IMG/VR virus record: IMGVR_UViG_3300037634_002773
Location: 1 to 56,662 of that record
DNA: 56,662 nucleotides
Direction: 5' to 3' (one strand)
Origin: a virus
Taxonomy: Duplodnaviria; Caudoviricetes
Position 1 is the stretch's first letter, and every line of letters begins with the position of its first letter. The translations under genes were made by a program, and so were the position numbers. Under the pieces are notes generated by a model. That model was not told the DNA's origin. It did not search any database and worked only from the letters and a program-made list of their open reading frames with translations. Below, piece by piece: positions 7,766 through 44,349 of the stretch.

Positions 7766-9277
7766 ATGGCTGATTTATTTTATACGGGTGGGACAACATC
7801 TAGTCTGAATCTTGACACTGGTGCGACTTATGGCACTATTGATACTGGCGATTTAAGGCGTAAGTATAATTTTGGTGATAGAGTTTCAGAGCTAGCAATT
7901 GCTCAAGACCCGTTCTTTCGGTTTGTATCTAAACTGAATAAAAAACCAACAGATGATCCTCATTTTCAGTTTACTGAAAAGAGAGGTTCATACCATAAGC
8001 GCTATGCTTATGTAACAGACCATGGAGCAACTTCCGCTCTCGGTAACTCTGGGGATTCCACATGGGATTCTGGAGAAAGCGATCAAGGTGATACCTACTA
8101 CTTTAAAATGGGTACTGACTATTTATCAGCTGGCAATCGTCAGAATGTATATGGTCAAGTTACCAATGATATATCAGTAGGTGATTCTGGAACAGCTCCA
8201 GAGTTCTTCATGGAAGGCCAATTAGTTAAAATCAATACACATACAGCAGGCGAATCGCCTGGTTCTGGTGGTGGCGAGGTTGATAACTATGCAGTAGTTA
8301 AAGTTGAAAGCGTCACCACAAGTGGTGAATTTAAAGTACTTAAAACTACTGTCATTAAAGAGCCTTTTGCTTCAGCAGCTGCAGTAGAAATTGCATCATT
8401 TGATACTAATACTCCAAAGGGTACTGGTGTTACTATGTATGGCAGTTCAATTGCTAGTGCTTTGGAACAACAAAGATGTTATGTGGTTGGTAACGCAAAT
8501 AAAGAGGGATCTGGATTCCCAGAAACCTGGAAAGATCAACCCTACTTACTAAAAACTGGCGCAACTCAGATTTGGAAAACCACAATGGCAATGTCCAACA
8601 CTGCACGCGCAACAGTTCTTAGATATGAAGGTAATGAGTGGGCACGTATCTGGAAAGAAAAACTAATCGAACATAAGTGGGACATTGAGGCTGACTTATT
8701 GTTTGGTACTCAGTATATTGATACTACTAATGGTATCCAGTATACACAGGGTGCTGTAGACTATGTGTTGACTAATGGCAATATCTTTACATTATCAACA
8801 ACTACAAAAACAGCTGACGACTTTCTTGATGACATGTCTAACTATCTTGATCCTCGTTATAATGGCAGCTCAGCTAATGTATTTTTCTGTGATACAGAGA
8901 CTTACAATTGGTTGCATAAATTAGGTGGATACTTCAAAAACAATATGGAAGTTTCCTCTAACTTTAGTGCTGACCTTGCTGTAACAGGTCGTAAAAAAGT
9001 GCTCGGTCTGGACACAACAACAATCTCAACAGTTTATGGTGATATGAATGTTGTACGTAATGTACATCTGGATGGAAGTCCTGTAAAAATTCTTGCTATG
9101 AACATGAAGAACTGTTTTTATCGTCCACTGGTTGGCAATGGTATAAACCGCGATACTGGTATTTATGTGGGTGTGCAAACACTTGAAAATAGTGGTATTG
9201 ATCGTAGAGTTGATCAAATCTTAACTGAAGCTGGTATGGAGTTCGGAATGGCCGAATCTCATGCTGTCTGGAAATAG
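7766..9277 (+). CDS. Major capsid protein (SU10/DUF5309-like)
   Basis: Follows scaffold; strong SD; motifs QIWKT, EHKWDIEADLLFG and DQILTEAGMEF. Confidence 0.9.
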   Translation: MADLFYTGGTTSSLNLDTGATYGTIDTGDLRRKYNFGDRVSELAIAQDPFFRFVSKLNKKPTDDPHFQFTEKRGSYHKRYAYVTDHGATSALGNSGDSTWDSGESDQGDTYYFKMGTDYLSAGNRQNVYGQVTNDISVGDSGTAPEFFMEGQLVKINTHTAGESPGSGGGEVDNYAVVKVESVTTSGEFKVLKTTVIKEPFASAAAVEIASFDTNTPKGTGVTMYGSSIASALEQQRCYVVGNANKEGSGFPETWKDQPYLLKTGATQIWKTTMAMSNTARATVLRYEGNEWARIWKEKLIEHKWDIEADLLFGTQYIDTTNGIQYTQGAVDYVLTNGNIFTLSTTTKTADDFLDDMSNYLDPRYNGSSANVFFCDTETYNWLHKLGGYFKNNMEVSSNFSADLAVTGRKKVLGLDTTTISTVYGDMNVVRNVHLDGSPVKILAMNMKNCFYRPLVGNGINRDTGIYVGVQTLENSGIDRRVDQILTEAGMEFGMAESHAVWK

Positions 9278-9804: not shown

Positions 9805-10212
9805 ATGGCTAGAGCAAAAATGGGCGCATCTTATGGATGGGAAGGTAATTACGTTGAGTCAGCAACGGCTAGTTTTAGTTTAGAAGTTGGCGATTCAGGT
9901 AAAACCTTTATATTAAAAGATGCAGCTGTAACAGTTACTCTCCCTACATTGAGTGATATAGAAGCTGGGTATTCAGTTAGATTAATATCTGGTGACGATA
10001 GCGAACATATATTAACTGGCGGTGCTAGTAAAATATATGGGCATGCTATAGATGGTAGTGGTACGGCTGCTGAAACAGTCTTGCCTCTAACAGGCCATTC
10101 AACTATTACTCCAGGTGCTGGTATGATTATAGGTGACAAATATGATATAGTTAGTGATGGCACTAACTGGTATGTATATGTCATTGCTGGTGCTGAAGTA
10201 GCAGGTAGCTAA
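9805..10212 (+). CDS. Probable capsid decoration protein, paralog of 9290
   Basis: DSGKTFIL...TLPTL...AGYSVRLI pattern. Confidence 0.6.
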   Translation: MARAKMGASYGWEGNYVESATASFSLEVGDSGKTFILKDAAVTVTLPTLSDIEAGYSVRLISGDDSEHILTGGASKIYGHAIDGSGTAAETVLPLTGHSTITPGAGMIIGDKYDIVSDGTNWYVYVIAGAEVAGS

Positions 10213-10228
10213 ATAAAAAGTAGATAAG

Positions 10229-10273
10229 GGCTGCCCCTCAAGGTGTTCATCTCGACTCCTCGTAGGGGTAGCC
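10229..10273 (+). other. GC-rich hairpin after the capsid genes, no U-tract
   Basis: GGCTGCCCCT pairs with AGGGGTAGCC (one G-U on the plus strand). Confidence 0.6.
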
Positions 10274-10277
10274 TACA

Positions 10278-10307
10278 TCTCGTTCACGGTAAACCAAACC
10301 TTAGAGA
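10278..10307 (+). promoter_or_regulatory. Candidate cis-regulatory RNA motif, copy 1
   Basis: TCTC-GTTCAC-GGT-loop-ACC-TTA-GAGA overlapping the SD of 10317. Confidence 0.65.
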
Positions 10308-10316
10308 GGAAGAAAA

Positions 10317-13300
10317 TTGGCAACATTTGAAGCACAAGTAGAAGCACTAACAGGAATCTCAATCAGCGGTTCCTCTAGCCCAACTCAAACAGAGTTGTCA
10401 TCATTTTTAGTAGATGGCGTTATAGATGTCGTCAATAGAGTGATTATGACTCGGCCTGCAGAACTTTCCAAATTTACCAAAACAACAAACGCAACTGATT
10501 CAGTAGCTAAAACAGGAAAAATATTATCTGTTGTTAGAGAGCATGATAGTACGACTATTTTAAGAAAGTGTGCAGAAATAGATCCAGGCGATAGATACGA
10601 TGCAACAGATACGGATAGCTTAAATTATCGCTCAAAGACAAATCCTGGCTATTATGAGTTAAGCGGGCTTATACTCTGTGTGCCTGAGGCATCTTCTGGA
10701 AACAATGATATTATTGTAACCCAGGTGCACTACGATACAGGCCTGATAAATACAGATAATTATCAAGCAGGCGCGATAGAAAATTTTCCAAAAGATTATG
10801 AATACTTAGTGGCAATATATGCCGCCATTCAATCATTAAGGGCTACCATGGGGAATAATGTGATATTACTTACTTCTGTTCCACCAGATGTACCTAGTTT
10901 GGCTACAGTTAGCTTTAGTGAGTCAAATTCTCTAAGTATTTCGGCAACTGCCCCAACTGCCATTTCACTTGCAACAGTTTCATATACTGATGCAGTAAAT
11001 GCAGATGCTAGTGCAACTGCTGTTGGAGCTATAACCGTAGCAACAGTAGCAAAGGCCGATATTAGTGGGGACGTTCCAGCATATACAAAGCCAGGACATC
11101 CAGCGCAGGTAGCATTTGCAGACTATTGGACAGTTGGAGATTTTGGAGATAGCGATCCAGGCGAACTTACTGTAACAGCAGTTCTTCCTAGTACTCCAAC
11201 TATCACAGCGGCAAGTGTCACAATAACAGGTACTGCTCCTACATATACAAAACCTTCATTAGCATTAAAGGTAGCTCCAACAATCTCAGACTTATCAATT
11301 ACAGCAGTTCCACCAGATACTCCGTCAGCTCCTAGCGTTGCAGGAGTTGCTATAGCATCTGTCGCCAAGGGATCATTAGCAACGTCAGCTCCAGCATATA
11401 CAAAGCCTGGGCATCCAACGCAGGTTGCATTTACCGATTATACAAGTGGATTATCTGAGACTGATCCTGGAGTATTAACAGTTACCTCTGTGACACCAGT
11501 TCCACCAACCGCACCAAGTTTCTCAACTCCAACAATAGGGGCTGTGACAGTTGGGTCTACAACACTTACTAATTTAGGCGTTGCTCCGTCATATACTTCA
11601 CCGACAGCAACAATTAGCGGGACTGCATGGGCAACCGCATATCCAGATGAATATACTGCTCTCAATATAGCTCTTGCTGCTATAACTACTGAAGTAGGAT
11701 TAGCAAAGGCAGAAGCTGCGGAAATTGTAACACAAACAGATAACAGTAGCGATTTTGCAACAGCACTTACTGCTATGAATGGAGAGCTTGATAAGGTTGA
11801 TGATATTATAGTTGAAGCAAGTGCAGAATTTGATAAATCTTCTGCACTTCTTCTTAAAGGAGAAGTTGATAGCGAAAGTGCTGTTAATGACGCAGCAGCT
11901 AAAATAGTAATAGAATTAGATGATACAAGGGCTATATGCGATAAGGTTGGGACATCAGCAGATAGTGCGATAACAGCTCTTGGTAATATGGCTACAGAAA
12001 TAGCACTTGCAAATGCAGAAGTGGATGGCGTGACAACAACATTAGCACAGGCTCTAGCGTTAACTGACTCTGGTAGCACTGACATTAAAACAGCTTTAAC
12101 TGGTATGCAAACAGCAGTTGCTAAATTTAGAGCTGATGGAAGTGACCCTGCCCTCTTTGGAGATGAGTCTACATATACTACTGGAAGTTCAGCCATGACA
12201 AATGTAAAAACGCATTTAGATAGAGCCATTAGTTATGTGAATGGTGATTTTCCTGAAGCTGATTCTGACTTAGTTCAATATCTTAAAGATATTAATGATC
12301 AGGTTACAGATGAAGATACAGAGCTTGCAGCTTCATTTATGCAAGCAGCGCAAACAACGATGAATGCAATGCAGGCTGATCTTCAAATAGCTCAAACATA
12401 TATAACAGAATGGAATGCAATGGTTCAAACTCTTGTTTCCGAGATTAATGCATTTTCATCTGAGGCTAGTTCTAGGTTTGGATGGATTAATGCTAAGGCT
12501 GTTGCATGGCAAGGAAAATTATCAGCAGCTCAAGGATATATGGGTACGGCAGGAGATTATGCAAATCAAGCAAGTGGATTTAATTCAACTGCACAAACTT
12601 ATGCTTCAGAGGTTCAAGCTAGGATTGGCTTGGCAAATGGATATGTAGCAGAGATTAATGTAAGGCTAGCACAGGCAGGTGTAAAAAGACAAGAATCTCA
12701 GTCGAGATTAACAGCTGGTAACGCTTATATTCAGGAAGCTCAGGCATATATCGCCCAAGCTAATGGATATGCTCAGGAAGTTTCTGCTCGTGGTGGTTTT
12801 ACAGCTGCTAAATCGCAGGCAGTGCAGGGATTTATACAGACCGCACAGGGTTATGCTAATGAGGTTCAAGCACTATTATCACAAACGCCATCAAAAGTAT
12901 CTGAATATCAAGCTAAGGTGCAGGATGCTTTAAATGAGTATAATAAAGAAAACGCATCATATCAAGCTAAATTACAGGAATCTATTCAGCAGGCACAAAT
13001 AAATGCTCAAAAAGCACAACAACAGGCTCAATTAGATGCAACAGATTCACAACAAGAAGCAAGTTTAAAGCTTCAAAAAGAGAACCAAGAGTATGCATCT
13101 AAACTTCAAAAGTATCAAGCTGAAGTCTCAAAATATCAAGCAGAAGTTAATACTCAGATACAAGAGTATGGACAAAAATTATCACAATACCAATTAGAAT
13201 TAAATACTGCTTATACCGCTTGGGCTAAAACAGAATCTGACAATATTCAAGTATTCCAATCCGACATACAGAATGAACTAAATGAGTTTAATAAAGAGAG

Positions 13301-14387
13301 TGCTGCCTATCAAGCGGATATTCAACTTGTTCTTGCAAAGTTTAATGCTGATGTTCAAGACGCTCAGAAAGAGGGAGATTTAACCTTTCAGGCTGATGTG
13401 CAGAACGAACAACTTACACTACAAAGATATTCTCAAGAACTTCAACAATATCAGGCAGAAGTAAATACAGAAGTTCAAGAGTATCAACAAAATTTAGCTG
13501 GAGATATTCAAGTATGGCAAGCTGAAAGATCAACTGATCTACAGAAATATAGCGCAGATGTTCAAAGCGAGTTAAACGAATATAATAAAGAAAATGCAGA
13601 GTATCAAGCTAAATTGCAAAAAGATATACAAGATGCTCAACTAGAAGATGCGGAAGAATCTAAAAAGCTACAGAAATATCAATCTGAGATAGGAGCATAT
13701 AGTGCACAGGTAAATAAGGATGTCCAAGAATATGGACAGAAATTTTCTCGATACCAACTTGAACTTAATACTGTTTATCAGGCATGGGCTAAAACAGAAT
13801 CAGATAATCTGCAAGTATTTCAACTAGATATACAGAATGAACTAAATGAATTTAATAAAGAGAATGTTAGATATCAAGCTAATATACAGGCGGAACTTGC
13901 AAAGCACAATACTGATCTGCAGAAAGCTTTAACGCAAGCACAATTAGATGCGGCAGATGCACAACAAGAAGCAACCCAAACTACCAATATAGATCAGTTT
14001 AATAAGGCTCAGGATCAAGCATTAGACTTAGCCAATAGGGCAAAGCAAATAGAAGATGATATATCTAATAATAATTCAAAGGTTGCTCAATTTCAAGCAG
14101 AAGCACAGCATTACGCTACTCAAGTTAATGAAGATGTACAAGCATATACTTCTCAGTTGCAGTCAGATGTTCAGACTATGCAGGCTATAATAGCTAACAA
14201 TCAGGCTTTACTAACTAAGTATCAGGCTGAAACTGCAGAGTACCAAGCAGAAATAGCTGCAGAAACACAAGAACAAAGTACAAAGATGCAGCAATATCAA
14301 TTACTGTATAATCAATTAAAGACGGAGTATGATCAAACATTTATGATTGCAGCTCCACAACAACAAGCAGCCCAAGAGGCTGCATAA
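10317..14387 (+). CDS. Head-tail adaptor-like protein with a ~1,150-aa fibrous insertion
   Basis: Adaptor-like N-terminus ending FPKDYEYLVAIYAA; four P-x-Y-T-(K/S)-P Pro/Thr repeats; four LNE(Y/F)NKE Gln-rich helical repeats. Confidence 0.7.
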   Translation: MATFEAQVEALTGISISGSSSPTQTELSSFLVDGVIDVVNRVIMTRPAELSKFTKTTNATDSVAKTGKILSVVREHDSTTILRKCAEIDPGDRYDATDTDSLNYRSKTNPGYYELSGLILCVPEASSGNNDIIVTQVHYDTGLINTDNYQAGAIENFPKDYEYLVAIYAAIQSLRATMGNNVILLTSVPPDVPSLATVSFSESNSLSISATAPTAISLATVSYTDAVNADASATAVGAITVATVAKADISGDVPAYTKPGHPAQVAFADYWTVGDFGDSDPGELTVTAVLPSTPTITAASVTITGTAPTYTKPSLALKVAPTISDLSITAVPPDTPSAPSVAGVAIASVAKGSLATSAPAYTKPGHPTQVAFTDYTSGLSETDPGVLTVTSVTPVPPTAPSFSTPTIGAVTVGSTTLTNLGVAPSYTSPTATISGTAWATAYPDEYTALNIALAAITTEVGLAKAEAAEIVTQTDNSSDFATALTAMNGELDKVDDIIVEASAEFDKSSALLLKGEVDSESAVNDAAAKIVIELDDTRAICDKVGTSADSAITALGNMATEIALANAEVDGVTTTLAQALALTDSGSTDIKTALTGMQTAVAKFRADGSDPALFGDESTYTTGSSAMTNVKTHLDRAISYVNGDFPEADSDLVQYLKDINDQVTDEDTELAASFMQAAQTTMNAMQADLQIAQTYITEWNAMVQTLVSEINAFSSEASSRFGWINAKAVAWQGKLSAAQGYMGTAGDYANQASGFNSTAQTYASEVQARIGLANGYVAEINVRLAQAGVKRQESQSRLTAGNAYIQEAQAYIAQANGYAQEVSARGGFTAAKSQAVQGFIQTAQGYANEVQALLSQTPSKVSEYQAKVQDALNEYNKENASYQAKLQESIQQAQINAQKAQQQAQLDATDSQQEASLKLQKENQEYASKLQKYQAEVSKYQAEVNTQIQEYGQKLSQYQLELNTAYTAWAKTESDNIQVFQSDIQNELNEFNKESAAYQADIQLVLAKFNADVQDAQKEGDLTFQADVQNEQLTLQRYSQELQQYQAEVNTEVQEYQQNLAGDIQVWQAERSTDLQKYSADVQSELNEYNKENAEYQAKLQKDIQDAQLEDAEESKKLQKYQSEIGAYSAQVNKDVQEYGQKFSRYQLELNTVYQAWAKTESDNLQVFQLDIQNELNEFNKENVRYQANIQAELAKHNTDLQKALTQAQLDAADAQQEATQTTNIDQFNKAQDQALDLANRAKQIEDDISNNNSKVAQFQAEAQHYATQVNEDVQAYTSQLQSDVQTMQAIIANNQALLTKYQAETAEYQAEIAAETQEQSTKMQQYQLLYNQLKTEYDQTFMIAAPQQQAAQEAA

Positions 14388-14402
14388 TAAGGAGAATAAA
14401 AA

Positions 14403-14882
14403 ATGGCAGATAAAGGAACTGCAAGTTTATCAGCATCTGTTTTTATGGATGATATAAAATCATCAATGGGAGGCTCTTCCAGTTATGAACCTAAAGACGC
14501 TAATGATAAATGGCTTTTTGCAGAAGTCGCAGTTAGCAATTCTTCAACTGACTTAATAGCAGATATGGATTATTTAGGTTCTACTGCTACTACGGTTGTA
14601 GCAGATGATGATGTAGCTTGGATAGCTATTAAAAACACATCAACCACAAGTACTGATGGTATTGCTATAAGGCTTGACGCAGGAAGTGCTGCTCATAATA
14701 GTGCAGGTAATATTTATATTGGGTCAGGTGAAATGGTAGTTTTAAAGACTTATACAACTCCATTAGCATCTATTCATGCAATTTCTGTTACCATGGATGG
14801 CACTTATGGTTATCCAAATGCAACTCATGCAGGAACTGTTAGTTGTCAAGTAGCAGCTATTGTAGATGATGGTGGTGTGTAA
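14403..14882 (+). CDS. Virion structural protein (hypothetical)
   Basis: SD; beta-rich S/T/G/A composition; structural cluster. Confidence 0.7.
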   Translation: MADKGTASLSASVFMDDIKSSMGGSSSYEPKDANDKWLFAEVAVSNSSTDLIADMDYLGSTATTVVADDDVAWIAIKNTSTTSTDGIAIRLDAGSAAHNSAGNIYIGSGEMVVLKTYTTPLASIHAISVTMDGTYGYPNATHAGTVSCQVAAIVDDGGV

Positions 14883-14884
14883 TA

Positions 14885-15265
14885 TTGGCAAAGCGAATAC
14901 TGTATAAAGCACATTGTACTCCACAAGAGCAAGTATCATCTGGCGGTAGATACTACTTAGATGGTGATTGTGGAAGAAAGCTTGCAGGTTCTAATCTATA
15001 TGAACTTGGAAGTGATACAACTGTAACTAATACAATAACGTCATCTGGGGCTATTGGGACAACTATAGATTTTATAGCTGTAACTGCTACATCAATTTCT
15101 GCTGATGCAACAGTTCATATTTCTCTAGACAATAATACAACAATACCCATCAAGCTTTTAGAGGGAGAATGTTTTGCCTCTAAAATAGATAGTAGTGCTC
15201 AACCTTATGTAAGAATAACTAACAACTCAGGTTCAGCCTCAGTTGATTATATGACAGGGACTTAA
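14885..15265 (+). CDS. Virion structural protein (hypothetical)
   Basis: Operon context; N-terminal RI...H..PQ pattern shared with 15269. Confidence 0.7.
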   Translation: MAKRILYKAHCTPQEQVSSGGRYYLDGDCGRKLAGSNLYELGSDTTVTNTITSSGAIGTTIDFIAVTATSISADATVHISLDNNTTIPIKLLEGECFASKIDSSAQPYVRITNNSGSASVDYMTGT

Positions 15266-15268
15266 ATT

Positions 15269-15826
15269 ATGGCAACACCAAATGATAGAAGGATAATATG
15301 GGGAACGCATGTAATACCTCAAGTGAGTTATTCAACCACAAGTACTGAGGAAACACGTGAAGAGGGTTCAACAGTTGGCACAGCTTCATATACTGACTAT
15401 AAACTCGATACTACAGTTGCAAAGAGATTTGGTGGTAAAGGTAGCGTTGATATAAGATCAGATCAAGGTACGGATGAATGGGTATCATTTTTAAGTCCAA
15501 TTGATAGTTTATGGGAAGCAGTAGATAATCTTTGGGAAGCTACCTCTGCTGTATGGGATAATGCATTTTCTGTTACAGCTAGTTCATCTACTCTTAGAAC
15601 TGATTCGGTAAATGTAGACTTTTTATATGTAAAGAATTTAGGTAGTGTAGAATGTAAGTTGGCTCTCCATTATGACGATAGTGCATCAAATGACAACCTT
15701 GATATACTTATCCCACCTGAAGCAGCTGTATCAATGAGGGTAAATAGTATGTCCTCAGACAATATTAAAGTACAAACAGCTTCTAGCACTACAACAATAG
15801 AATACGTAATAGCAAGAACGCCTTAA
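15269..15826 (+). CDS. Virion structural protein (hypothetical)
   Basis: Operon context; VDFLYVKN resembles VAWIAIKN in 14403. Confidence 0.7.
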   Translation: MATPNDRRIIWGTHVIPQVSYSTTSTEETREEGSTVGTASYTDYKLDTTVAKRFGGKGSVDIRSDQGTDEWVSFLSPIDSLWEAVDNLWEATSAVWDNAFSVTASSSTLRTDSVNVDFLYVKNLGSVECKLALHYDDSASNDNLDILIPPEAAVSMRVNSMSSDNIKVQTASSTTTIEYVIARTP

Positions 15827-15841
15827 TAGGGAGATACTGAA

Positions 15842-18253
15842 ATGGCAGAAACATTAACAGGAAAAACAATAGCAGCTACTTATAAGACTTTGCTTAAAGC
15901 TGGATCAAATAATCCAGTAGCATTAGCAAGTGGCAGTGGATCATCTGAAAGGCTTGTATTTGGAGAAGATGATGCAGCAGATGTAAGAACAGCACTATAT
16001 GTAACTCAAGATAGACTCGGCATTGGGAAAGCTGATCCAGATGCCTCGCTTCATATAGGTAGTGGTGATATTTATATAGAAAGAGGTGGTGAATTAAATT
16101 TCTATGCTGATGGTTCTGGTGAGAGGGCAGGAATAGCAGCAACCAATTCTAGTCCATATAATGAATTGCAATTTTTTATTGGAAGCCATTCAGAAGCAAT
16201 GCGTATTGACGATAGTGGTAATGTCGGCATTGGGACTGATGCACCAGCCACTATCTTTGAAATTGAAAGCTCTGCCTCTGAGACAGCTTTAGGTATTGAT
16301 AATCATGGGACTGATAGTGACCCTGTTATTAGATTTAAACTAAGTGGTACTACAAATTATATGATGGGAGTAGATGATAGTGATTCTGATAAATTTAAAA
16401 TAGCAACAAATTCAATGGCTAATGCTAAAATAACTTTACAATCTGATGGCAATGTCGGTATTGGGACTACTTCACCAGAATGCGATTTGCATATTCAAGA
16501 TGCTACAATTCCCAGAGTTTTAATAGATTCATCAGCAACATCAGGTTCAGATATGAGGGGTATTCTTGATATGAAGGATGGCAACAATGATGGCTGGAGA
16601 ATGGTTTATATTGCAGATGATGCCCAGCAATATTTAGCTTTTGAGGCTATTGAAAATGACTCTCATACTACAGCTATGGTTATAGAGGATACTGGCAATG
16701 TCGGTATTGGGACTACTTCACCAAGTGCAGTATTGCATGTTGCTTCAGGAGCTGCAAATCCAGCAAAAATTATTACAAGTTCTAGTACTAATTCATCATT
16801 GCTAATAGGTAATACATCTTCAGGTACAGCTGCATTAGTTTTAGATGCTTCTAATGGCGATGGTGAAGGTAGTGATTATATGCACCTATGGCAGGCAAAT
16901 GACTTAGATGGTCATATTGATATGAAAGCTTCTGGTTATGATTTAATACTACAGGAATCAGGTGGCAAAGTCGGCATTGGGACTACTACGCCAGCAACAC
17001 CATTACATATATATAGTAGCGATGAAAGTCTAGCAAAGTTTCAATCTACAGATGCTAGTGCATATATACACATAAGAGATAATAATGATAATTGCTATGT
17101 TGGAGTACATGATGGGTCAGGCGATAATATTTCATATATTGGAGGAACAGCTGGAGCAAGTGCACTTAATCTGAATGTAACATCAGCTGGCAATGTCGGT
17201 ATTGGGACTACTTCACCTGATTATCAATTAGAGTTGTCAAAAGATGGGGCAGCTCACCTGGTTCTTTCTTCTTATTCTGATACAGAATCCCATGCACCTA
17301 CTGTAATTTTGCGTCACGCTGAAGGTAGTGAAGCAAGCCATGCTAGTGCTGTTGATAACGCTTGCATATTAGGTCAGATTGTCTTTCAGGGATATGATGG
17401 TGATAGTTTTGAAAGTGGAGCAGCAATAAAAGTTCTTACCAATACTGATTCTGCCAATGGCGATATGAGGTCTGATATGTCATTTTGGACAACTCCAGAT
17501 GCTTCTGCGACTGCTGTTCAAAATATGACAATAAGATATGATGGCAATGTCGGTATTGGGAGCACCACCCCAGGTGCAAAATTTATGGTTGCAGATTCAA
17601 CAACAACAACAACATCAGTAGCTTATTTTTATAGTAATTCAAGCAGTACTTCAAGTAGAAATATAGTATCTATAATCAATGACCACGTTGATGCAGATGA
17701 TGCTGTATGTCTCAGAATTGACCAAGATGGTGGTGATTATATGATTAACGCTGTTGGGTCAGGTACTTTTCGTGTTCAAGCCGATGGAGATTGTGAAAAT
17801 ACTGACAATGATTATGGTGCAATATCTGATATTAGGATGAAGGAAAATATTACAGATTGTACTCCTAAGCTTGATGATATAAACAAACTTCGTATTGTGA
17901 ATTTTAACTTTAAAGATATAGGCGATGGACATAAGCAAATTGGTGTAATAGCTGACGAAGCAAAGGAAGTATTTCCCGCTCTTGTTAAGGTTTCTGATGG
18001 AAGGGAATATAAGGAAGAGAAGGTTCAAGTAACTCCAGCAGTAGAAGCTAAAGATGCAGTATTGGATGGAGATGGGAATATTCAAGAAGAAGCAGTTGAA
18101 GCTGTGGAAGCAGAATATGAAGATGTTCTTACTAGTGAAGTCATAAATGGTTATGAAGACCAACAATCTTTTTCATATTCAATACTAGTACCAATGTTAG
18201 TAAAAGCAATACAAGAATTATCAGCTAAGGTAACAGCCTTAGAAAACGCATAA
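15842..18253 (+). CDS. Tail fibre with GNVGIGT repeats and a C-terminal S74 intramolecular chaperone
   Basis: Six G(N/K)VGIG repeats; SDIRMKENI...IGVIADE...LVPMLVKAIQELS. Confidence 0.9.
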   Translation: MAETLTGKTIAATYKTLLKAGSNNPVALASGSGSSERLVFGEDDAADVRTALYVTQDRLGIGKADPDASLHIGSGDIYIERGGELNFYADGSGERAGIAATNSSPYNELQFFIGSHSEAMRIDDSGNVGIGTDAPATIFEIESSASETALGIDNHGTDSDPVIRFKLSGTTNYMMGVDDSDSDKFKIATNSMANAKITLQSDGNVGIGTTSPECDLHIQDATIPRVLIDSSATSGSDMRGILDMKDGNNDGWRMVYIADDAQQYLAFEAIENDSHTTAMVIEDTGNVGIGTTSPSAVLHVASGAANPAKIITSSSTNSSLLIGNTSSGTAALVLDASNGDGEGSDYMHLWQANDLDGHIDMKASGYDLILQESGGKVGIGTTTPATPLHIYSSDESLAKFQSTDASAYIHIRDNNDNCYVGVHDGSGDNISYIGGTAGASALNLNVTSAGNVGIGTTSPDYQLELSKDGAAHLVLSSYSDTESHAPTVILRHAEGSEASHASAVDNACILGQIVFQGYDGDSFESGAAIKVLTNTDSANGDMRSDMSFWTTPDASATAVQNMTIRYDGNVGIGSTTPGAKFMVADSTTTTTSVAYFYSNSSSTSSRNIVSIINDHVDADDAVCLRIDQDGGDYMINAVGSGTFRVQADGDCENTDNDYGAISDIRMKENITDCTPKLDDINKLRIVNFNFKDIGDGHKQIGVIADEAKEVFPALVKVSDGREYKEEKVQVTPAVEAKDAVLDGDGNIQEEAVEAVEAEYEDVLTSEVINGYEDQQSFSYSILVPMLVKAIQELSAKVTALENA
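16216..17561 (+). repeat. DNA-level repeats inside the fibre gene
   Basis: TGGCAATGTCGGTATTGGGACTACTTCACC is exact at 16447, 16693 and 17188; variants at 16216, 16963 and 17542. Confidence 0.9.
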
Positions 18254-18271
18254 CAAACAAGGAGAGTAATA

Positions 18272-18514
18272 ATGGCGAAAGCAAAAGAAGTAGAAACACA
18301 AGGCAAGTCAGTAGAGGAGCTGAAAGAAATAGCTCAGACCTTACAGACTCAACTTAATGAACATCAGAGGCAAGCTAATCATCATCAGACGATGGCAACT
18401 AAGGCTCAAGGAGCTCTAGAAGTACTACTACAACTGATTCCAAAAGAGGAAATTGAAGAGATGGTAGAAAAGGAGAAGGATAATAGCAGTAATGGAGAAG
18501 TAGTTGAAGGTTAA
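18272..18514 (+). CDS. Small coiled-coil protein
   Basis: AGGAG SD; helical sequence; follows the fibre gene. Confidence 0.75.
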   Translation: MAKAKEVETQGKSVEELKEIAQTLQTQLNEHQRQANHHQTMATKAQGALEVLLQLIPKEEIEEMVEKEKDNSSNGEVVEG

Positions 18515-18785
18515 AGAACTTATGGAACGTGTTGGCATGACTCAAACAGGTCGTGCCATTGCGTATATTAAGGATGGATTGGATGAGATGAATATGATGG
18601 CAGAGACTCATGTCACTACTGAACGTATTGATATTGCTGAGAATCAAAGATTCTATGATTTTCCAAATGACATGATTAAAGTTATCGACATTAGATGTAA
18701 AAATCATGGTAATGCGGCAGATGAGTATAGAAGTGTACCAAGAGCTATAAACCCACCAGCAACGGAGGACGCAGATGGCATCTAG
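18504..18785 (+). CDS. Adaptor-like protein, N-terminal part
   Basis: YIKDGLDEM...NQRFYDFPNDMIKV resembles adaptor N-halves. Confidence 0.55.
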   Translation: MKVKELMERVGMTQTGRAIAYIKDGLDEMNMMAETHVTTERIDIAENQRFYDFPNDMIKVIDIRCKNHGNAADEYRSVPRAINPPATEDADGI

Positions 18786-19473
18786 TAAATATTATGCTTA
18801 TTACATAAGGGGGAGGCAGCTTGCTGTTGTTCAGCACGATTATACGCTTGGTAGCGGTCAAACCTTATCTCAACCAGGATTAAATTCAGTAGGGGCTAGG
18901 GGTGATGTGTTGTGGAAAAGTCCAACTGAAGCAATTGCAGATGGTATAGAGATAGAGTATGCTTATAGTCCTAGATATAGCATTGATGAGACTGATGACA
19001 AGAATACCGCTATAGATACATATGTATCGCTTGATGGATTGCTTAAAATTATAGATCAAGGAGATGATGACTACTCCGCCTCTCCTGAAAGTTTAAGTGA
19101 TGGAAGCTATATAGTGCTAAAGAAAGCTGGGAGATGGAATGGACTACATAAAGTTAAAGCAGCTGGTGTAGGATATATCACCCTTTATACACGATTTAGT
19201 GGCAGTGCTAGTGTGCAAAAAGCATTTGAAGAAGCTCCAGAATTATACTATAATGTATCAGCGCTACAAGATGAGTCAGATACGATAGATCTCCCAGAAT
19301 ACTTAGCTAAAGCCTTGGTGTATTATGTAAAAGCCAAGATCGCTGAGGATAGGGGTGAATTAGAGCAAAAAGAATATAATATGCGCGAGTTCAAGCGCTT
19401 ACTAGAAAGAAATGAGAGCTCAAAAATATGGGGAGCTCGAAGGATAGGAACAGACGAAACAGCAATCAAATAA
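18775..19473 (+). CDS. Adaptor-like protein, C-terminal part
   Basis: DTIDLPEYLAKALVYYVKAK...YNMREF resembles adaptor C-halves. Confidence 0.55.
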   Translation: MASSKYYAYYIRGRQLAVVQHDYTLGSGQTLSQPGLNSVGARGDVLWKSPTEAIADGIEIEYAYSPRYSIDETDDKNTAIDTYVSLDGLLKIIDQGDDDYSASPESLSDGSYIVLKKAGRWNGLHKVKAAGVGYITLYTRFSGSASVQKAFEEAPELYYNVSALQDESDTIDLPEYLAKALVYYVKAKIAEDRGELEQKEYNMREFKRLLERNESSKIWGARRIGTDETAIK

Positions 19474-19475
19474 CA

Positions 19476-19504
19476 GCCCATTCACGCCAGTCATGGCTTA
19501 GGGC
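19476..19504 (+). promoter_or_regulatory. Candidate cis-regulatory RNA motif, copy 2
   Basis: GCCC-ATTCAC-GCC-loop-GGC-TTA-GGGC immediately before the AGGAGG SD of 19516. Confidence 0.65.
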
Positions 19505-19515
19505 AGGAGGTTAAA

Positions 19516-19890
19516 ATGGCAAGAACATCGGGCTTACACGCCTTTACAGTACAAGAGGCTACAAATTATGAAGCCTTTACATCATGGAACTTTCAGGCAA
19601 TAGATGTTAGTGGTGATGCAATAGATGATCCAGGCGTTACTGCAACTTATATAACATCAGCTGATCCAGCAAAAAAGGTTATTCTTTACGATAAGGGTGG
19701 ACTACTAGAGGCTGCCGATAGTATATCTATTACTTTAAATGGAGAAACAGATGCCAATAAGGTTATTATTGTAGATGGTTCAAATTTACCATTCACACTA
19801 TCAGGCTTAACTATTACAAGCTTTAAAATAACAATACCTGATGGAGATACTACCGCTAGTGAAGAGCTAGGCTTAATATCATTCCATTAA
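19516..19890 (+). CDS. Virion structural protein (hypothetical)
   Basis: Strong SD; beta-rich. Confidence 0.75.
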   Translation: MARTSGLHAFTVQEATNYEAFTSWNFQAIDVSGDAIDDPGVTATYITSADPAKKVILYDKGGLLEAADSISITLNGETDANKVIIVDGSNLPFTLSGLTITSFKITIPDGDTTASEELGLISFH

Positions 19891-29515: not shown

Positions 29516-30826
29516 ATGACAAATGAACAGATAGCAAGAATTTATAGTATTAAGATGCAAAATCTTATGAATAAGAATGCTCGACGCGAGCAAGAGCAAG
29601 ATGATGCAGATAGGGCGGCATTTCAAAAGAAGCAGAAACTTTATGGAGATATATCTGCTGGCCTTTCAATTGCAGGCATGGGTAAAGATTTATACGAATG
29701 GAGACAGGGGAAGCTTTTAGATATTAAATATAAAGAGGATGAGAATATTTTAGGAGGACTTAAGTCATTTAAAAAATATAAACCTAAAGAAGACAGATCA
29801 TTTAAAGAAGTAATAGGAGATATTGGTACAGGCGAGAATATAAAAAGATTAACCCCTAAAGGCTCACTAGAAGAAACAGAAGGCTATAAGGAGTTTAAAG
29901 CATCAGAGATATCATTAACTGAGGAAATGATTGAGGTGGATGATTTGCCTTCGCCTGCGCCACAGCCAGATTATGCTAAAATACAAGGTGCAGCTGAAGA
30001 TCAGAAATTGCAAGCCTTAAGGGAACTAGAAACCACTCCAGGCATTACTCCAGAAGTGTCAGCCGATCCAAAATTAGAAAAAGCATTAGGAGGCCTAGAA
30101 AAATTAAAAGCTCCAAAGGTTAAAGGCTCAGACGAAGTGCTACCAGAACAGCTTAGAGCAAGCGCTGGTATGTCAGATATGCCTGATGTAGAGGCTCCAG
30201 ATGCTAAGCCAGGCGGTAAATATGTAGGAAAAGCATTAGAAGCTCTTCAAACATTAAAAACTATGCAAGGTATTGGAGAAACATTAACAAGTGAAGAGGC
30301 TAGCGGTGCAGACAAGGCAATAGCGGGCACTCAAGCCACTAAAATGTTGGCAGATATGGCGGCAAAAAGAGCTGGTCAAGAGACTGCATCCCAGATAGGC
30401 AGTAAGGCCGCTACTCAATTTATAAAAGGAAAAGGCCTCCAAGAGGGTGTTAAGCTTGGCGGTAAGCAAGCAGTTGGTGCAGTAGCTGGTGGTGCTATAG
30501 GTGCATATACAGCTGTGACTGAGGCTAAAGAGACTGGCGAATCTTGGAAGGAAAAAGATTATGATGAGGCTATTCTTCATGGTATGGGTTCTGCCTCTGG
30601 AGTGCTTCAAACAGCTGGAACTGGTATGATGTTGACAGGGGTAGGTTCTCCAATAGGAGCGGTACTATATGGGATCGGAACAGCTGGCTCAGCTATATCT
30701 AGCGCTGGGTTAATGTTGGAAGGCTTGTTTGGCGGTGGTGGAGAGCCTGATAAACCAAAAAAACCAAAGTTTAATGCTGCCAAGTATTTGCAGTCAATTA
30801 GAGGTCAAAGAAGTTATGGGAGATAG
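29516..30826 (+). CDS. Probable ejection (internal virion) protein
   Basis: Position after the nozzle; Gly/Ala-rich hydrophobic C-terminus. Confidence 0.6.
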   Translation: MTNEQIARIYSIKMQNLMNKNARREQEQDDADRAAFQKKQKLYGDISAGLSIAGMGKDLYEWRQGKLLDIKYKEDENILGGLKSFKKYKPKEDRSFKEVIGDIGTGENIKRLTPKGSLEETEGYKEFKASEISLTEEMIEVDDLPSPAPQPDYAKIQGAAEDQKLQALRELETTPGITPEVSADPKLEKALGGLEKLKAPKVKGSDEVLPEQLRASAGMSDMPDVEAPDAKPGGKYVGKALEALQTLKTMQGIGETLTSEEASGADKAIAGTQATKMLADMAAKRAGQETASQIGSKAATQFIKGKGLQEGVKLGGKQAVGAVAGGAIGAYTAVTEAKETGESWKEKDYDEAILHGMGSASGVLQTAGTGMMLTGVGSPIGAVLYGIGTAGSAISSAGLMLEGLFGGGGEPDKPKKPKFNAAKYLQSIRGQRSYGR

Positions 30827-30829
30827 ATT

Positions 30830-32506
30830 ATGAGAATATATACAGAAGTCAATTTTCAGTGGGATGATAAGAAGGGCAAATTAGTCGAAGTATCTTCTGA
30901 GTCTTTTGATTATAGTGGTGAGATGGCGCTGTGTAAATGGTCAAATGACTGGGGAGATCATTTATGGGATGATGCTGGATATGAATATAAACAAGATGTT
31001 GAAGAGCATGCTGGCTGGACGGGAAATATAAGAACCGCAAAATTATACAGAAGAAAAGCTGGCGGGGAATGGGTACGGTATGGTAGTACGCAAACAGAGA
31101 ATCTAGATGATAGTAATGCACGCGCGCGCTTCAAAAGGCTCGTTAGTGAGGCAAGCACTATATCTGGGGATGCTCATGCAGATAAAATGGCTTGGCAATC
31201 TTGGTGGGGAGGGCACTTTAATGGTAATGATCCTTTTGATGATCCTACTACAAATCAAAATTATTTAAATGAAAAAGAAAATCCAACGGGTAACCTAGCA
31301 TATACATATACCTCGGAAGATGAAGGCTTGTCTGAGGGAGACTATGGCGCACTTAGCGATGAAGAAAAAGATCTGTATCTTAAAGATGAGGAATCAGGCA
31401 CATGGCTTAAAAAAGATGAGACATATTGGTCGGACGAAGAGAGTAAGAGTTACGAAACACGATTAGCCGAACAGGCCCTAGAAGGTTACATAGAAAACTG
31501 GGAAGAAATAACTGGGACTGAGATAAATGATTATCAACGTGACGTAATAGCTGCCACACAGGTTCTTGAATCTGCCGAAGGCGATGTAACGTCTGCGTTT
31601 GAAGAATACGAAAAACAAATTGGCAGAGCTGGAACAGAATACGAAGAAGATGTAGAGGCATTGACAGGCGAGCAGGTTATTGATCCTATAACGGGAGAAG
31701 TAATTAGTGAGGGAACCTTTACGGCTGGTATGCGCACGGCACTAAAGGAAAAAGAAGAGGGCCTGGAGACAACAGTCACAACGAGGGAAGCAGGGTTAGA
31801 AGCTTTAAGAGAAGAGGCGGGGGGAGAAATTAGAGCAGCTGAGGCCAAAATAGGAGCGGCTGGATTTGCCTCAACTGGAGTTGGTCAAACAGCTAGAGAT
31901 GTATTAGCAGAAGAAATTGGTGAAGCGGCAAGAGATATTGATGAGGTCTTTACTGAGGGCAGAGAAGATATAACAGAGGGCTATGAAGAGACAAAGACAG
32001 AGCTGACAATAGGCAAAGAAGGGCTTCTTGGTGATTATTTGAAAACACGCGAAGAGGCTGGTGAAGATTTAGATGATCCATGGGAAGCAAAAACAACGGA
32101 CTATCAGGAATTATTGAAATCCTATGGGATTGGGGAAGATGCAGTTTTAGCACCATATGCAGATATTACGTCAGAGGCTGAGGGGGCATTAAGCACGATT
32201 CAGTTCAATATTCAGTCGCTTATCGAAAACACAAAAGGCATAGAGGGAATGGAATCATGGGATCCCTTTACAGAAGCTGGGGGATATGAAGATAGGGCCG
32301 ATGAGCTGGGATTTGTAGCAGGATCAACCGTATACGATACATCGGCTGTTAAAGGGGCATTTCAGGCATCAATAGATGAATATGGGTATGAACCTACCGA
32401 GGGACTAGAACTATATAATCCAAATATGAAAATGCCATGGGAAACAGGTGGCGGAAGCAAGCCTAAAGACCCATACAAACCATACATACCAGGCGGACAA
32501 AGATAA
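30830..32506 (+). CDS. Probable ejection protein, very acidic
   Basis: Position; distinct N-terminal module MRIYTEV...FDYSGEMALC. Confidence 0.6.
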   Translation: MRIYTEVNFQWDDKKGKLVEVSSESFDYSGEMALCKWSNDWGDHLWDDAGYEYKQDVEEHAGWTGNIRTAKLYRRKAGGEWVRYGSTQTENLDDSNARARFKRLVSEASTISGDAHADKMAWQSWWGGHFNGNDPFDDPTTNQNYLNEKENPTGNLAYTYTSEDEGLSEGDYGALSDEEKDLYLKDEESGTWLKKDETYWSDEESKSYETRLAEQALEGYIENWEEITGTEINDYQRDVIAATQVLESAEGDVTSAFEEYEKQIGRAGTEYEEDVEALTGEQVIDPITGEVISEGTFTAGMRTALKEKEEGLETTVTTREAGLEALREEAGGEIRAAEAKIGAAGFASTGVGQTARDVLAEEIGEAARDIDEVFTEGREDITEGYEETKTELTIGKEGLLGDYLKTREEAGEDLDDPWEAKTTDYQELLKSYGIGEDAVLAPYADITSEAEGALSTIQFNIQSLIENTKGIEGMESWDPFTEAGGYEDRADELGFVAGSTVYDTSAVKGAFQASIDEYGYEPTEGLELYNPNMKMPWETGGGSKPKDPYKPYIPGGQR

Positions 32507-32517
32507 AGGAATAAATT

Positions 32518-43912: not shown

Positions 43913-43949
43913 GTAGTTCCCTTTTAAAGTAGGAGGTGGAATTTAAGAA

Positions 43950-44348: not shown

Positions 44349-44349
44349 C

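What the first reader, a model, noticed from the sequence alone, without database searches (positions are those of the whole stretch)
10278..19504. Covarying RNA motif (stem-RUUCAC-stem-UUA-stem) directly before two virion-gene ribosome-binding sites
Seen: 10278-10307 reads TCTC g TTCAC GGT aaaccaa ACC TTA GAGA, and 19476-19504 reads GCCC a TTCAC GCC agtcat GGC TTA GGGC. The internal loop (RUUCAC opposite UUA) is identical, while both stems differ in sequence yet pair fully. Both copies lie in rare intergenic gaps and abut or overlap the SD, 9-11 nt before the start. This pattern is typical of a conserved RNA structure, and I do not recognise it as a known family. Inference: a translational operator bound by a phage protein, a processing site or a small ligand-binding element that sets the stoichiometry of tail-module proteins.
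Basis: partly seen in the sequence, partly recalled or inferred. Interest (0 to 1): 0.8.

Follow-up and report, generated by a model that had tools for sequence, protein, structure and literature searches.

The report
Start-codon-pairing leader pseudoknot in phages
The two look-alike sites are real copies of a small, widespread and apparently undescribed RNA structure in marine phage mRNAs, whose hairpin loop base-pairs with the start codon of the gene behind it and so most likely gates that gene's translation.

Summary
The same element occurs in at least 120 IMG/VR contig stretches. It always lies on the sense strand, directly 5' of a strong SD. It precedes only two gene families, the homologues of window 19516-19890 and of window 10317-14387.

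In 98 distinct copies, 98.8% of cells pair and 8 of 12 pairs show compensatory changes.

New here: the hairpin loop (GYCA) pairs with the start-codon region (UGRC), forming an H-type pseudoknot with the SD in the connecting strand. Whenever the second codon is not GCN, the loop changes to match:
- UCA with GACA
- CCA with GGCA
- GGA with CCCA
- ACA with GUCA

This held in 20 of 21 real scan hits.

The internal loop (RUUCAC/UUA) stays fixed while flanks and stems vary. There is no Rfam match, no copy in cellular genomes, and no phage gene whose distribution follows the motif.

Best reading: a cis-acting translation-initiation gate that works like the E. coli rpsO pseudoknot. Its partner is the ribosome or another conserved factor, not a dedicated phage protein. 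The function itself is inferred; no RNA data were available.

The parts
10273..10277 (+). Site 1: A-rich 5' flank (CTACA here; family consensus AACAA)
   Evidence: In 91 distinct copies, position -4 is A in 87, position -1 is A in 86, and position -3 is C in 70.
10278..10307 (+). Site 1 core. P1 is 10278-10281 with 10304-10307 (TCTC/GAGA). J1/2 is 10282-10287 (GTTCAC). P2 is 10288-10290 with 10298-10300 (GGT/ACC). The loop is 10291-10297 (AAACCAA). J2/1 is 10301-10303 (TTA).
   Evidence: 44.4 bits. The same structure is recovered by RNAalifold on 98 copies.
10294..10297 (+). Site 1 pseudoknot, 5' strand: loop CCAA, pairing with UUGG of the start region
   Evidence: Read from the sequence. In the family register one pair (A10293 with C10321) is a mismatch, the single 'other' cell of pair 19-52. 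It is replaced by A10297-U10317, which the TTG start makes possible.
10304..10312 (+). Site 1 SD region GAGAGGAAG; its first four bases are the 3' arm of P1
10317..10320 (+). Site 1 pseudoknot, 3' strand: TTG start codon plus G of codon 2
   Evidence: Homologues start at the same position with ATG or TTG.
10317..14387 (+). Downstream gene 1: 1356-aa virion-module protein. The N-terminus MATFEAQVxxLTG...SQFLxDGV is conserved; the rest varies (220-1356 aa in relatives).
   Evidence: No Pfam, PHROG or PDB sequence match.
19476..19504 (+). Site 2 core. P1 is 19476-19479 with 19501-19504 (GCCC/GGGC). J1/2 is 19480-19485 (ATTCAC). P2 is 19486-19488 with 19495-19497 (GCC/GGC). The loop is 19489-19494 (AGTCAT). 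J2/1 is 19498-19500 (TTA).
   Evidence: -10.2 kcal/mol, z -2.4; 44.5 bits.
19490..19494 (+). Site 2 pseudoknot, 5' strand: loop GUCAU
   Evidence: It pairs with AUGGC at 19516-19520 as G-C, U.G, C-G, A-U, U-A.
19505..19510 (+). Site 2 SD AGGAGG, directly after P1, in the strand that connects P1 to the pseudoknot
19516..19520 (+). Site 2 pseudoknot, 3' strand: ATG start plus GC of codon 2
19516..19890 (+). Downstream gene 2: 124-aa protein. The N-terminal peptide (LHxFTVQEAxN) is conserved; the body is a beta-sandwich.
   Evidence: 106 homologues. AlphaFold2 model with pLDDT 84.7. Only weak fold matches.
10228..10276 (+). A separate conserved hairpin in the same gap, between the stop of 9805-10212 and site 1. 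It is not part of the motif.
   Evidence: z -3.1 for the gap. In 10 relatives, 14 pairs are predicted and 10 of them show compensatory changes; the loop GGUGAGCUUCCC..UCCC is conserved.

Best explanation
The element is a cis-acting mRNA leader of about 45-50 nt. Read 5' to 3' it consists of:
- an A-rich tail (AACAA);
- P1, 4 bp;
- an asymmetric internal loop that hardly ever changes (RUUCAC opposite UUA);
- P2, 3-4 bp, with a 5-7 nt loop;
- a strong SD directly after P1;
- the start codon.

Four or five loop bases (GYCA, sometimes plus one) pair with bases 2-3 of the start codon and the first two bases of codon 2. This is shown here by covariation. The result is an H-type pseudoknot. The start codon is masked, and the SD sits in the single-stranded connector.

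Inferred mechanism. The 30S subunit can dock on the exposed SD, with the folded leader on its platform. It can only place the start codon in the P site once the pseudoknot melts. The leader therefore sets or gates the initiation rate of two virion-module genes. This is how the E. coli rpsO (S15) operator works.

Inferred partner. The unpaired bases are almost invariant in phages whose proteins have diverged to 30-65% identity, and no phage gene tracks the motif. The partner that reads the internal loop is therefore more likely the ribosome, another conserved host component, or the RNA's own tertiary fold, than a dedicated phage repressor.
For: Structure
- In 98 distinct copies, 98.8% of 1173 cells pair, against 86.1% in shuffles (0 of 500 shuffles reach the observed value).
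- 8 of 12 pairs show changes on both sides. The covariation score is 0.367 against 0.132 in shuffles, and no more than 0.071 in any slid register.
- RNAalifold recovers P1 and P2 on its own.

Pseudoknot
- The pseudoknot helix alone is 99.5% paired, with covariation 0.200 against 0.082 (0 of 500).
- Pair 20-51 is CG 59, UG 28, AU 6, GC 3, UA 1, other 1. Pair 19-52 is GC 95, CG 2, other 1.
- Three scans fixed only the 3' side. ATGH in IMG/VR gave 5 of 5 hits as ATGTCA with loop GACA. ATGGD in IMG/VR gave 2 of 2 hits as ATGGGA with loop CCCA.
- ATGH in metagenomes gave 15 hits: 1 chance hit without stems and 14 real. Of the real hits, 9 are ATGTCA with GACA, 4 are ATGCCA with GGCA, and 1 is an exception (U.U). 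Some of these records duplicate IMG/VR ones.

Sense-strand RNA
- The 28 U.G pairs in the pseudoknot, plus those in P1 and P2, would be A.C mismatches on the other strand.

Link to the translation start
- Of 144 structural scan hits in all loci, 132 are followed by an SD and an ORF. Of the other 12, 2 are real copies (a mis-called start, a contig end) and 10 are chance hits in coding DNA.
- The spacing from P1 to the start is 9-12 nt.
- The distance to the upstream stop codon is 2-19 nt in 58 of 92 copies, 48-188 nt in 32, and undetermined in 2. Several different upstream hairpins occur. The element therefore travels with the downstream gene.

Invariant loop
- With the nine loop positions left free in the scan, 58 hits gave ATTCAC/TTA 53 times and ATTCAT/TTA 5 times, in 45 different flank contexts.

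No dedicated phage factor
- None of the 80 window ORFs follows the motif across 8 motif-bearing and 4 motif-less genomes.

Analogue
Against: - There is no expression or structure-probing data. No RNA run was listed for this phage, so the effect on translation is inferred only.
- The pseudoknot is short (4-5 bp). At site 1, P1 and P2 are weak (-3.2 kcal/mol, no better than shuffles), and one family pair is mismatched.
- Many close relatives lack the element at the same gene junction. At site 2 it is present in 3 of 14 informative loci. At site 1 it is present in 1 of 10 loci found through the upstream gene. It is therefore dispensable.
- UGGC after the A of the start codon is common to most genes of this phage. 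The pairing argument therefore rests on the minority of copies with other second codons. These may stem from few independent events.
- Most copies came from scans that fixed TTCACG, CTTAG and GGAGG, and from my filter of at least 3 pairs per stem. This inflates the pairing percentages for P1 and P2 (but not for the pseudoknot).
- Strong SD and optimal spacing would also fit an enhancer rather than a brake. The direction of the effect is unknown.
Confidence: 0.55

Rival explanations
1. Operator for a phage-encoded translational repressor or activator. This includes autogenous control by the downstream protein. The protein would bind the invariant internal loop and lock the pseudoknot, as S15 does on rpsO or gp32 does on its leader.
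For: The unpaired bases are invariant. There are only one or two targets per genome: 26 of 30 records have one copy, and the window, G052 and G053 have two. That number is typical of autogenous control. The start is masked.
Against: None of the 80 window ORFs is confined to motif-bearing genomes. The products downstream belong to two unrelated families. Within the main family the C-terminal domains differ in kind (90-190 aa, at least four types). Only a roughly 20-aa N-terminal peptide is shared, and it is not shared with the second family. The 124-aa protein is modelled as a beta-sandwich with no match to RNA-binding folds. A core virion protein present in all these phages is not excluded.
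Confidence: 0.15
2. A riboswitch. The internal loop and pseudoknot would form a pocket for a small molecule or ion, and ligand binding would stabilise the start-masking pseudoknot. The architecture would resemble the SAM-II, preQ1-II, SAM/SAH and NAD-II translational switches.
For: The fold is compact, has about 14 near-invariant unpaired bases and an H-type pseudoknot that overlaps the initiation region.
Against: No Rfam model matches even at E <= 10. The regulated genes are virion proteins with no metabolic link. The element is absent from 185,579 cellular species genomes at the pattern used: 2 hits, both without stems. The comparison with the known switches is recalled from memory, not tested beyond Rfam.
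Confidence: 0.08
3. An mRNA processing or stability element. It could be an RNase entry or stop site in the late polycistronic transcript, a 5'-terminal fold that protects the downstream mRNA, or a small self-cleaving ribozyme.
For: A G-poor, A/U-rich single strand precedes P1. In 32 of 92 copies, conserved upstream hairpins separate the element from the previous gene, as at site 1. The core is invariant and includes a pseudoknot, as in small ribozymes.
Against: This does not explain why the loop must pair with the start codon and track its neighbours. No known ribozyme model matches. No end-mapping data exist.
Confidence: 0.1
4. A temporal gate of the T4 e/soc/I-TevI kind. Read-through transcripts would carry the inhibitory fold, while transcripts from a promoter inside or next to it would lack the 5' part and be translated.
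For: T4 uses this logic at several initiation regions (PMC3014915, passages read). An A/T-rich stretch lies upstream.
Against: No sigma-70-like promoter was found at either site. The masking strand is the P2 loop, only about 25 nt from the start. P1 covaries, so the full-length fold exists in a selected RNA. Promoters of unknown phage type cannot be scanned for.
Confidence: 0.05
5. A DNA-level module boundary or miniature mobile insert that has spread by recombination, with no RNA function of its own.
For: An identical 36-nt core occurs in 53 contigs with 45 flank combinations. L020 and L023 have the same flanks, with and without the roughly 32-nt insert. The downstream genes are mosaic, with a conserved N-terminus and swapped C-termini.
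Against: Compensatory changes occur in three helices, one of them reaching into the coding region. G.U pairs occur on one strand only. The distance to the SD and start is fixed. Recombinational spread and RNA function can coexist.
Confidence: 0.04

Closest known systems
E. coli rpsO (ribosomal protein S15) translational operator pseudoknot
   Same: A hairpin loop pairs with the start of the coding sequence. The SD remains available for 30S docking. The fold must melt before the start codon reaches the P site. The fold is the point of control (PMC3858243, passages read).
   Different: There is no sequence or model similarity: Rfam gave nothing. The gene is a phage virion gene, not rpsO. The phage element is smaller. 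It has an extra basal helix, P1, and an invariant 6/3 internal loop. No repressor is known.
T4/T2/RB69 gene 32 leader pseudoknot
   Same: It is a phage mRNA leader pseudoknot used in translational control. Loop 1 is short, so the geometry is comparable (the geometry is recalled from memory; the review passages were read).
   Different: The gene 32 pseudoknot lies about 67 nt upstream of the start. It acts as a nucleation site for cooperative gp32 binding over an unstructured RBS, and it does not contain the start codon (PMC3014915). Here the start codon is itself one strand of the pseudoknot. The downstream genes are not SSBs.
T4 e, soc, 49 and I-TevI initiation-region hairpins
   Same: Intramolecular pairing hides the SD and/or AUG of a phage gene (PMC3014915).
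   Different: Those are simple hairpins that are bypassed from internal late promoters. Here the fold is a pseudoknot with an exposed SD, and no promoter was found.
H-type pseudoknot riboswitches (SAM-II, preQ1-II, SAM/SAH, NAD+-II)
   Same: They are compact leaders whose pseudoknot overlaps the initiation region (recalled from memory).
   Different: No covariance-model match was found. Those switches mask the SD, whereas this element masks the start codon. The gene context here is not metabolic.
Anonymous candidate structured RNAs 'DNAVirus_N' mined from IMG/VR intergenic regions (PMC10690425)
   Same: The source database is the same. That pipeline would consider intergenic regions of 30 bp or more with covariation, so the motif may be in its list of 8495 candidates (passages read).
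   Different: The main text describes nothing like it. The term search found 'tail' 0 times and 'pseudoknot' twice. The lists and models are in supplements that I could not open. Prior listing is therefore neither shown nor excluded.

Membership tests
Any Rfam 15 family | Covariance-model score at or above the family's gathering threshold | tested here: not met
   There were 0 matches over the whole window at gathering thresholds. At E <= 10 there were 0 matches around site 2. Around site 1 only three sub-threshold chance hits appeared, to snoRNA and lncRNA models, at 11-15.6 bits against gathering scores of 44-80.
rpsO/S15-type entrapment operator | The pseudoknot pairs a hairpin loop with the start of the coding region | tested here: met
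   Pseudoknot helix columns 19-22 with 49-52 are 99.5% paired, with 5 further pair types and 12 double-changed cells against 1.1 in shuffles.
rpsO/S15-type entrapment operator | The SD is left unpaired and accessible in the folded state | tested here: inconclusive
   The SD lies in the connector and is unpaired in all predicted folds of site 2. At site 1 its first bases are the 3' arm of P1. Tertiary contacts cannot be predicted with these tools.
rpsO/S15-type entrapment operator | It is bound by the product of the regulated gene (S15) and lies upstream of rpsO | tested here: not met
   The downstream genes are phage virion-module genes with no Pfam or PHROG family. The element is absent from cellular genomes.
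rpsO/S15-type entrapment operator | The 30S subunit docks on the folded mRNA and is stalled before P-site accommodation | not testable with these tools
   This needs toeprinting or cryo-EM.
T4 gene 32-type autoregulatory pseudoknot | The pseudoknot lies far upstream (about 67 nt) of the start, is followed by an unstructured A+U-rich RBS, and the gene encodes an SSB | tested here: not met
   The pseudoknot includes the start codon itself. The gene products are not SSB-like.
Metabolite riboswitch | Association with genes of one metabolic or transport pathway, and ligand-dependent folding | tested here: not met
   For the gene-association feature: only two virion-module gene families follow the element, 83 and 9 of 92 distinct leaders. 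Ligand binding cannot be tested here.
Intrinsic terminator | A G+C-rich hairpin followed directly by a U run | tested here: not met
   No terminator-like site was found on the + strand at either motif. The motif is followed by the SD, not by Us.
T4 e/soc-type gated initiation region | A promoter inside or next to the inhibitory fold that produces a truncated, translatable leader | tested here: inconclusive
   No sigma-70-type promoter was found at the sites. Phage-specific promoters are unknown for this clade.

The most novel reading that the evidence does not exclude
The element is a new class of sensor RNA. Its invariant 6/3 internal loop, A-rich tail and start-codon pseudoknot would form a pocket for a universal cellular ligand: a small molecule, an ion, or a defined site on the 30S platform or 16S rRNA. 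Alternatively they would form the core of a new small self-cleaving ribozyme. Either way, a family of uncultivated marine podophages would switch synthesis of their exchangeable receptor-binding or appendage proteins according to the state of the host cell. No phage protein would be involved.
Probability: 0.15. Interest if true: 0.85.

Novelty: new variant of a known kind. Interest (0 to 1): 0.64.

Why it matters
Start-masking leader pseudoknots are textbook cases, but they are known from very few systems: bacterial ribosomal-protein operons and, in phages, essentially gene 32. A 2010 T4 review still called gene 32 possibly the only viral example used in translational autoregulation (PMC3014915).

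This element is a compact one of about 45 nt, heavily supported by covariation, and present in well over a hundred marine phage contigs. The start codon itself forms one strand of the pseudoknot. Natural variants already supply the compensatory-mutation series that an experimenter would otherwise have to design.

It marks two genes whose N-termini are conserved and whose C-termini are swapped between phages. These are probably appendage or host-recognition proteins. It may therefore show how uncultivated phages dose or time such proteins.

Its near-invariant unpaired core points to a conserved partner that is still unknown. It is also small enough to be useful as a portable translational control part.

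Tried and rejected
- DNA similarity to cultured phages: none around either site. The terminase is at most 26% identical to any cultured phage. The 124-aa protein has no tblastn hit. Host and taxon remain unknown.
- Relatives of the 124-aa protein by peptide patterns in IMG/VR: none confirmed. Relatives were reached through the neighbouring genes instead.
- Bacteroidota-type 'SD-less host' idea: rejected, because SDs are common throughout the genome.
- Translational coupling to the upstream gene as the general mechanism: rejected. The stop-to-P1 distance ranges from 2 to 188 nt, and 32 of 92 copies lie 48 nt or more away behind other hairpins.
- tRNA or tmRNA: none found.
- Promoter or terminator at the sites: nothing on the + strand at the motifs.
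- Cellular origin, prophage or host copy: 2 hits in genome contigs, both without stems. My rough estimate for chance is about 3.
- Function of the downstream proteins. Pfam, PHROG and PDB sequence searches were empty. Fold search gave only weak jelly-roll and uncharacterised-phage matches: PDB best E 5e-3, BFVD best E 3.6e-4, TM no more than 0.6.
- Expression: no RNA holder was listed among the 24 sequencing runs, all marine DNA.
- The fifth pseudoknot pair (the base after CA with base 1 of the start codon) is facultative. It is A with the U of TTG in all 6 distinct TTG leaders. With ATG starts it is often G or A, which is unpaired. I did not count it as covariation.
- Complex prediction was not used, because no protein-protein claim is made.
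Full report
**1. The observation**

- Site 1 is 10278-10307. It lies in the 104-nt gap between ORF 9805-10212 and the TTG start of a 1356-aa ORF at 10317.
- Site 2 is 19476-19504. It lies in the 42-nt gap between ORF 18775-19473 and the ATG of a 124-aa ORF at 19516.

The window is a complete 56,662-bp virus record with direct terminal repeats. It has a P22-like portal (Pfam, E 1.3e-51) and a major head protein at 7766-9277 (PHROG, E 1.9e-12). It also has a tail-fibre-like gene at 15842-18253.

A generalised, post-hoc version of the motif hits the window twice. Shuffles expect 0.105 hits, and 2 of 200 shuffles gave 2 or more. On thermodynamics alone the case is weak. Site 1 folds at -3.2 kcal/mol (z -0.07) and site 2 at -10.2 kcal/mol (z -2.4).

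**2. Relatives**

No cultured phage is close. I reached uncultivated relatives through the genes upstream of each site.
- At the site 1 junction, 1 of 10 loci (L006) has the element, with a different inner stem. The others go from a conserved hairpin straight to the SD.
- At the site 2 junction, 3 of 14 informative loci have it (L023, L024, L025), with different stems. The rest have stop, SD and start with no insert. L020 has the same flanks as L023 but lacks the roughly 32-nt insert.

A covariance model built from six copies finds only the two sites in the window (44.5 and 44.4 bits; next best 11.2 bits). It hits 10 of 25 related records.

I then scanned IMG/VR with a pattern that fixes only TTCACG, CTTAG and GGAGG. 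Among the first 80 loci there are 37 distinct variants. Six of these (7 loci) are G+C-rich chance hits without stems. The other 31 have both stems.

In whole records, 30 of 30 carry the element. Twenty-six have one copy. G052, G053 and the window have two. G035 (104 kb) has two identical hits 56.7 kb apart, which looks like a concatemer.

Two hits in 185,579 cellular species genomes both lack the stems.

**3. Structure**

I aligned 98 distinct copies from P1 to codon 2.
- 98.8% of cells pair (shuffles 86.1%; 0 of 500 shuffles reach this).
- 8 of 12 pairs show double changes.
- The covariation score is 0.367, against 0.132 in shuffles and at most 0.071 in any slid register.
- P1 is seen as GCCC/GGGC, ACCC/GGGU, GCUC/GAGC, ACUC/GAGU, UCUC/GAGA, AUCC/GGAU, GUCC/GGAC and GCGC/GCGC.
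- P2 is seen as GCAC/GUGC, GGAC/GUCC, GGAU/AUCC, GCUC/GAGC, GCUU/AGGC and GCAU/AUGC.
- RNAalifold finds P1 and P2 unaided.

Caveat: my scans and my filter (at least 3 pairs per stem) favour paired stems.

**4. The new point: a pseudoknot with the start codon**

The loop carries GYCA, and almost all copies start AUGGCN. That pairing could be a coincidence, because most genes of this phage start ATGGC. I therefore scanned for copies whose second codon is not GCN, fixing nothing in the loop.
- IMG/VR, ATGH: 5 of 5 hits are ATGTCA with loop GACA.
- IMG/VR, ATGGD: 2 of 2 hits are ATGGGA with loop CCCA.
- Metagenomes, ATGH: 15 hits. One is a chance hit without stems. Nine are ATGTCA with GACA. Four are ATGCCA with GGCA. 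One (L228) is ATGTCA with GUCA, a single U.U mismatch.
- L136 has ATGACA with GUCAU.

Several metagenome records duplicate IMG/VR ones. The distinct leader sequences among these are about ten, carried on at least five different P2 stems.

For the four pseudoknot pairs alone, 99.5% of cells pair. Pair 20-51 is CG 59, UG 28, AU 6, GC 3, UA 1, other 1. Pair 19-52 is GC 95, CG 2, other 1. Covariation is 0.200 against 0.082 in shuffles (0 of 500).

With TTG starts, the base after CA is A in all 6 distinct leaders. This adds an A-U pair. In the window:
- Site 2 pairs GUCAU (19490-19494) with AUGGC (19516-19520).
- Site 1 pairs CCAA (10294-10297) with UUGG (10317-10320).

The many U.G pairs assign the structure to sense-strand RNA.

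The topology is H-type:
- P2 is stem 1.
- One loop base serves as loop 1.
- The pseudoknot helix is stem 2, stacked on P2.
- The connector holds UUA, the 3' arm of P1, the SD and the spacer.

**5. What is constant**

I left the nine internal-loop positions free and fixed only the commonest stems. The scan gave 58 hits: ATTCAC/TTA 53 times and ATTCAT/TTA 5 times, in 45 flank contexts. Elsewhere the first loop base is A or G.

The five bases before P1 tend to AACAA (position -4 is A in 87 of 91 copies; position -1 is A in 86 of 91). G is rare for 14 nt upstream. The SD follows P1 directly, and the start lies 9-12 nt after P1.

**6. Context**

The element travels with the downstream gene. Of 92 distinct leaders:
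- 83 precede small proteins (90-190 aa) that share only an N-terminal peptide, (L/I)(H/Q)x(Y/F/L)(S/T)VQE(A/S)xN, and carry at least four kinds of C-terminal domain.
- 9 precede proteins that start MATF(E/K)(A/Q)Q..LTG and range from 220 to 1356 aa.

The upstream context varies. The upstream stop lies 2-19 nt away in 58 copies and 48-188 nt away in 32, behind several different hairpins. It is undetermined in 2. General coupling to the upstream gene is therefore unlikely.

The 124-aa protein has 106 homologues with no annotation of value. It models as a beta-sandwich with a short N-terminal helix (pLDDT 84.7). Fold matches are weak only.

A conserved N-terminus with swapped C-termini is the usual pattern for phage fibre or appendage proteins. 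That reading is an inference from general knowledge, not a test.

**7. Is there a phage partner?**

I ran tblastn with 80 window ORFs against 8 motif-bearing and 4 motif-less whole records. Only nine morphogenesis genes are shared by all 8 motif-bearing records, at 26-70% identity. Each of the nine is also present in at least 3 of the 4 motif-less records. The missing cases are in G017 and G014, which are 80% and 74% complete. No ORF follows the motif.

The entire early region at 42.6-56.6 kb has almost no counterpart in these relatives. Yet the RNA core is identical to the base in genomes this far apart. That argues for a very conserved partner (the ribosome, a host factor, or the RNA's own tertiary fold), for recent spread as a cassette, or for both.

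**8. Mechanism**

*Shown:* a sense-strand leader fold in which the start codon is one strand of a pseudoknot and the SD lies in the connector.

*Inferred:* the 30S subunit docks on the SD with the fold on its platform, and the pseudoknot must melt before initiation. The leader therefore sets or gates initiation.

This is how rpsO works. [quoted passage not shown]

The direction of the effect (brake, timer or enhancer) and the identity of any partner are unknown. Rivals are listed with their tests: a phage protein operator, a riboswitch, a processing element or ribozyme, a T4 e-type promoter gate, and a recombination linker.

**9. Comparison and novelty**

No Rfam 15 family matches, even at E <= 10.

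The element works like the rpsO operator but fails that family's membership tests on gene, protein and sequence.

It differs from the T4 gene 32 pseudoknot. That one lies about 67 nt upstream of the start and does not include it (PMC3014915, passages read).

A 2023 survey mined IMG/VR intergenic regions for structured RNAs (PMC10690425, passages read).

My literature searches found no description of such an element. I therefore rate it a new variant of a known kind.

**10. Limits**
- No RNA data exist for this phage (see Tried and rejected).
- The host is unknown.
- The number of independent evolutionary events behind the compensatory changes was not established with a tree.
- Most copies were found with patterns that fix part of the motif.

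Noticed in passing
window 10228-10276 (+): There is a second conserved structure in the site 1 gap: an 11-14 bp hairpin just after the stop of 9805-10212. In 10 relatives, 10 of the 14 predicted pairs show compensatory changes. The loop is conserved and pyrimidine-rich (GGUGAGCUUCCC..UCCC) and contains an anti-SD-like CCUCC/CUCCU. No U run follows it, and it has no Rfam match. In some relatives the same hairpin type precedes site-2-type copies (L089, L154).
   Followed up: partly
L040, L041, L049, L055, L064, L078, L080, L082, L096, L126, L130, L133, L148, L150, L155 (about 30-95 nt upstream of the motif): Another recurrent nested hairpin, GTAGAACTATGGGG..(loop)..CCCCGAATCTAC, is followed by an A/T-rich stretch. 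It precedes the motif in many contigs. It could be a terminator, a processing site or a promoter region.
   Followed up: no
L020 versus L023, junction after the homologue of window 18775-19473: The two loci have the same flanks (..CAATAAACG / AGGTTAATATGG..), one with and one without the roughly 32-nt element. This is a precise insertion or deletion.
   Followed up: partly
53 IMG/VR contigs (loci): An identical 36-nt core (P1 through SD) sits in 45 different flank contexts. The genomes' core proteins are only 30-65% identical. This suggests cassette-like spread of the leader together with the conserved N-terminus of the downstream gene.
   Followed up: partly
window 29516-56662: The ORFs 29516-42602 include a 2915-aa ORF at 33855-42602 with only weak PHROG hits. 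These ORFs, and the whole minus-strand early region 42603-56496, have almost no counterpart in 12 related whole genomes. Those genomes share only the morphogenesis core.
   Followed up: no
G035 (104,488-bp IMG/VR record): It has two identical motif hits 56.7 kb apart. The record is probably a head-to-tail concatemer of a roughly 56.7-kb genome.
   Followed up: no
window 10317: The 1356-aa gene starts with TTG, where several homologues have ATG at the same codon. All 6 distinct TTG leaders have an A after the loop CA that can pair with the U of TTG.
   Followed up: partly
L002-L007, L059, L072, L106 (minus strand of the locus, inside coding DNA): A conserved coding stretch (ATAT/ACAT G TTCAC TATC..) satisfies the relaxed stem-loop scan by chance. 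It has no SD or start after it. It is a useful negative control for pattern-only searches.
   Followed up: yes
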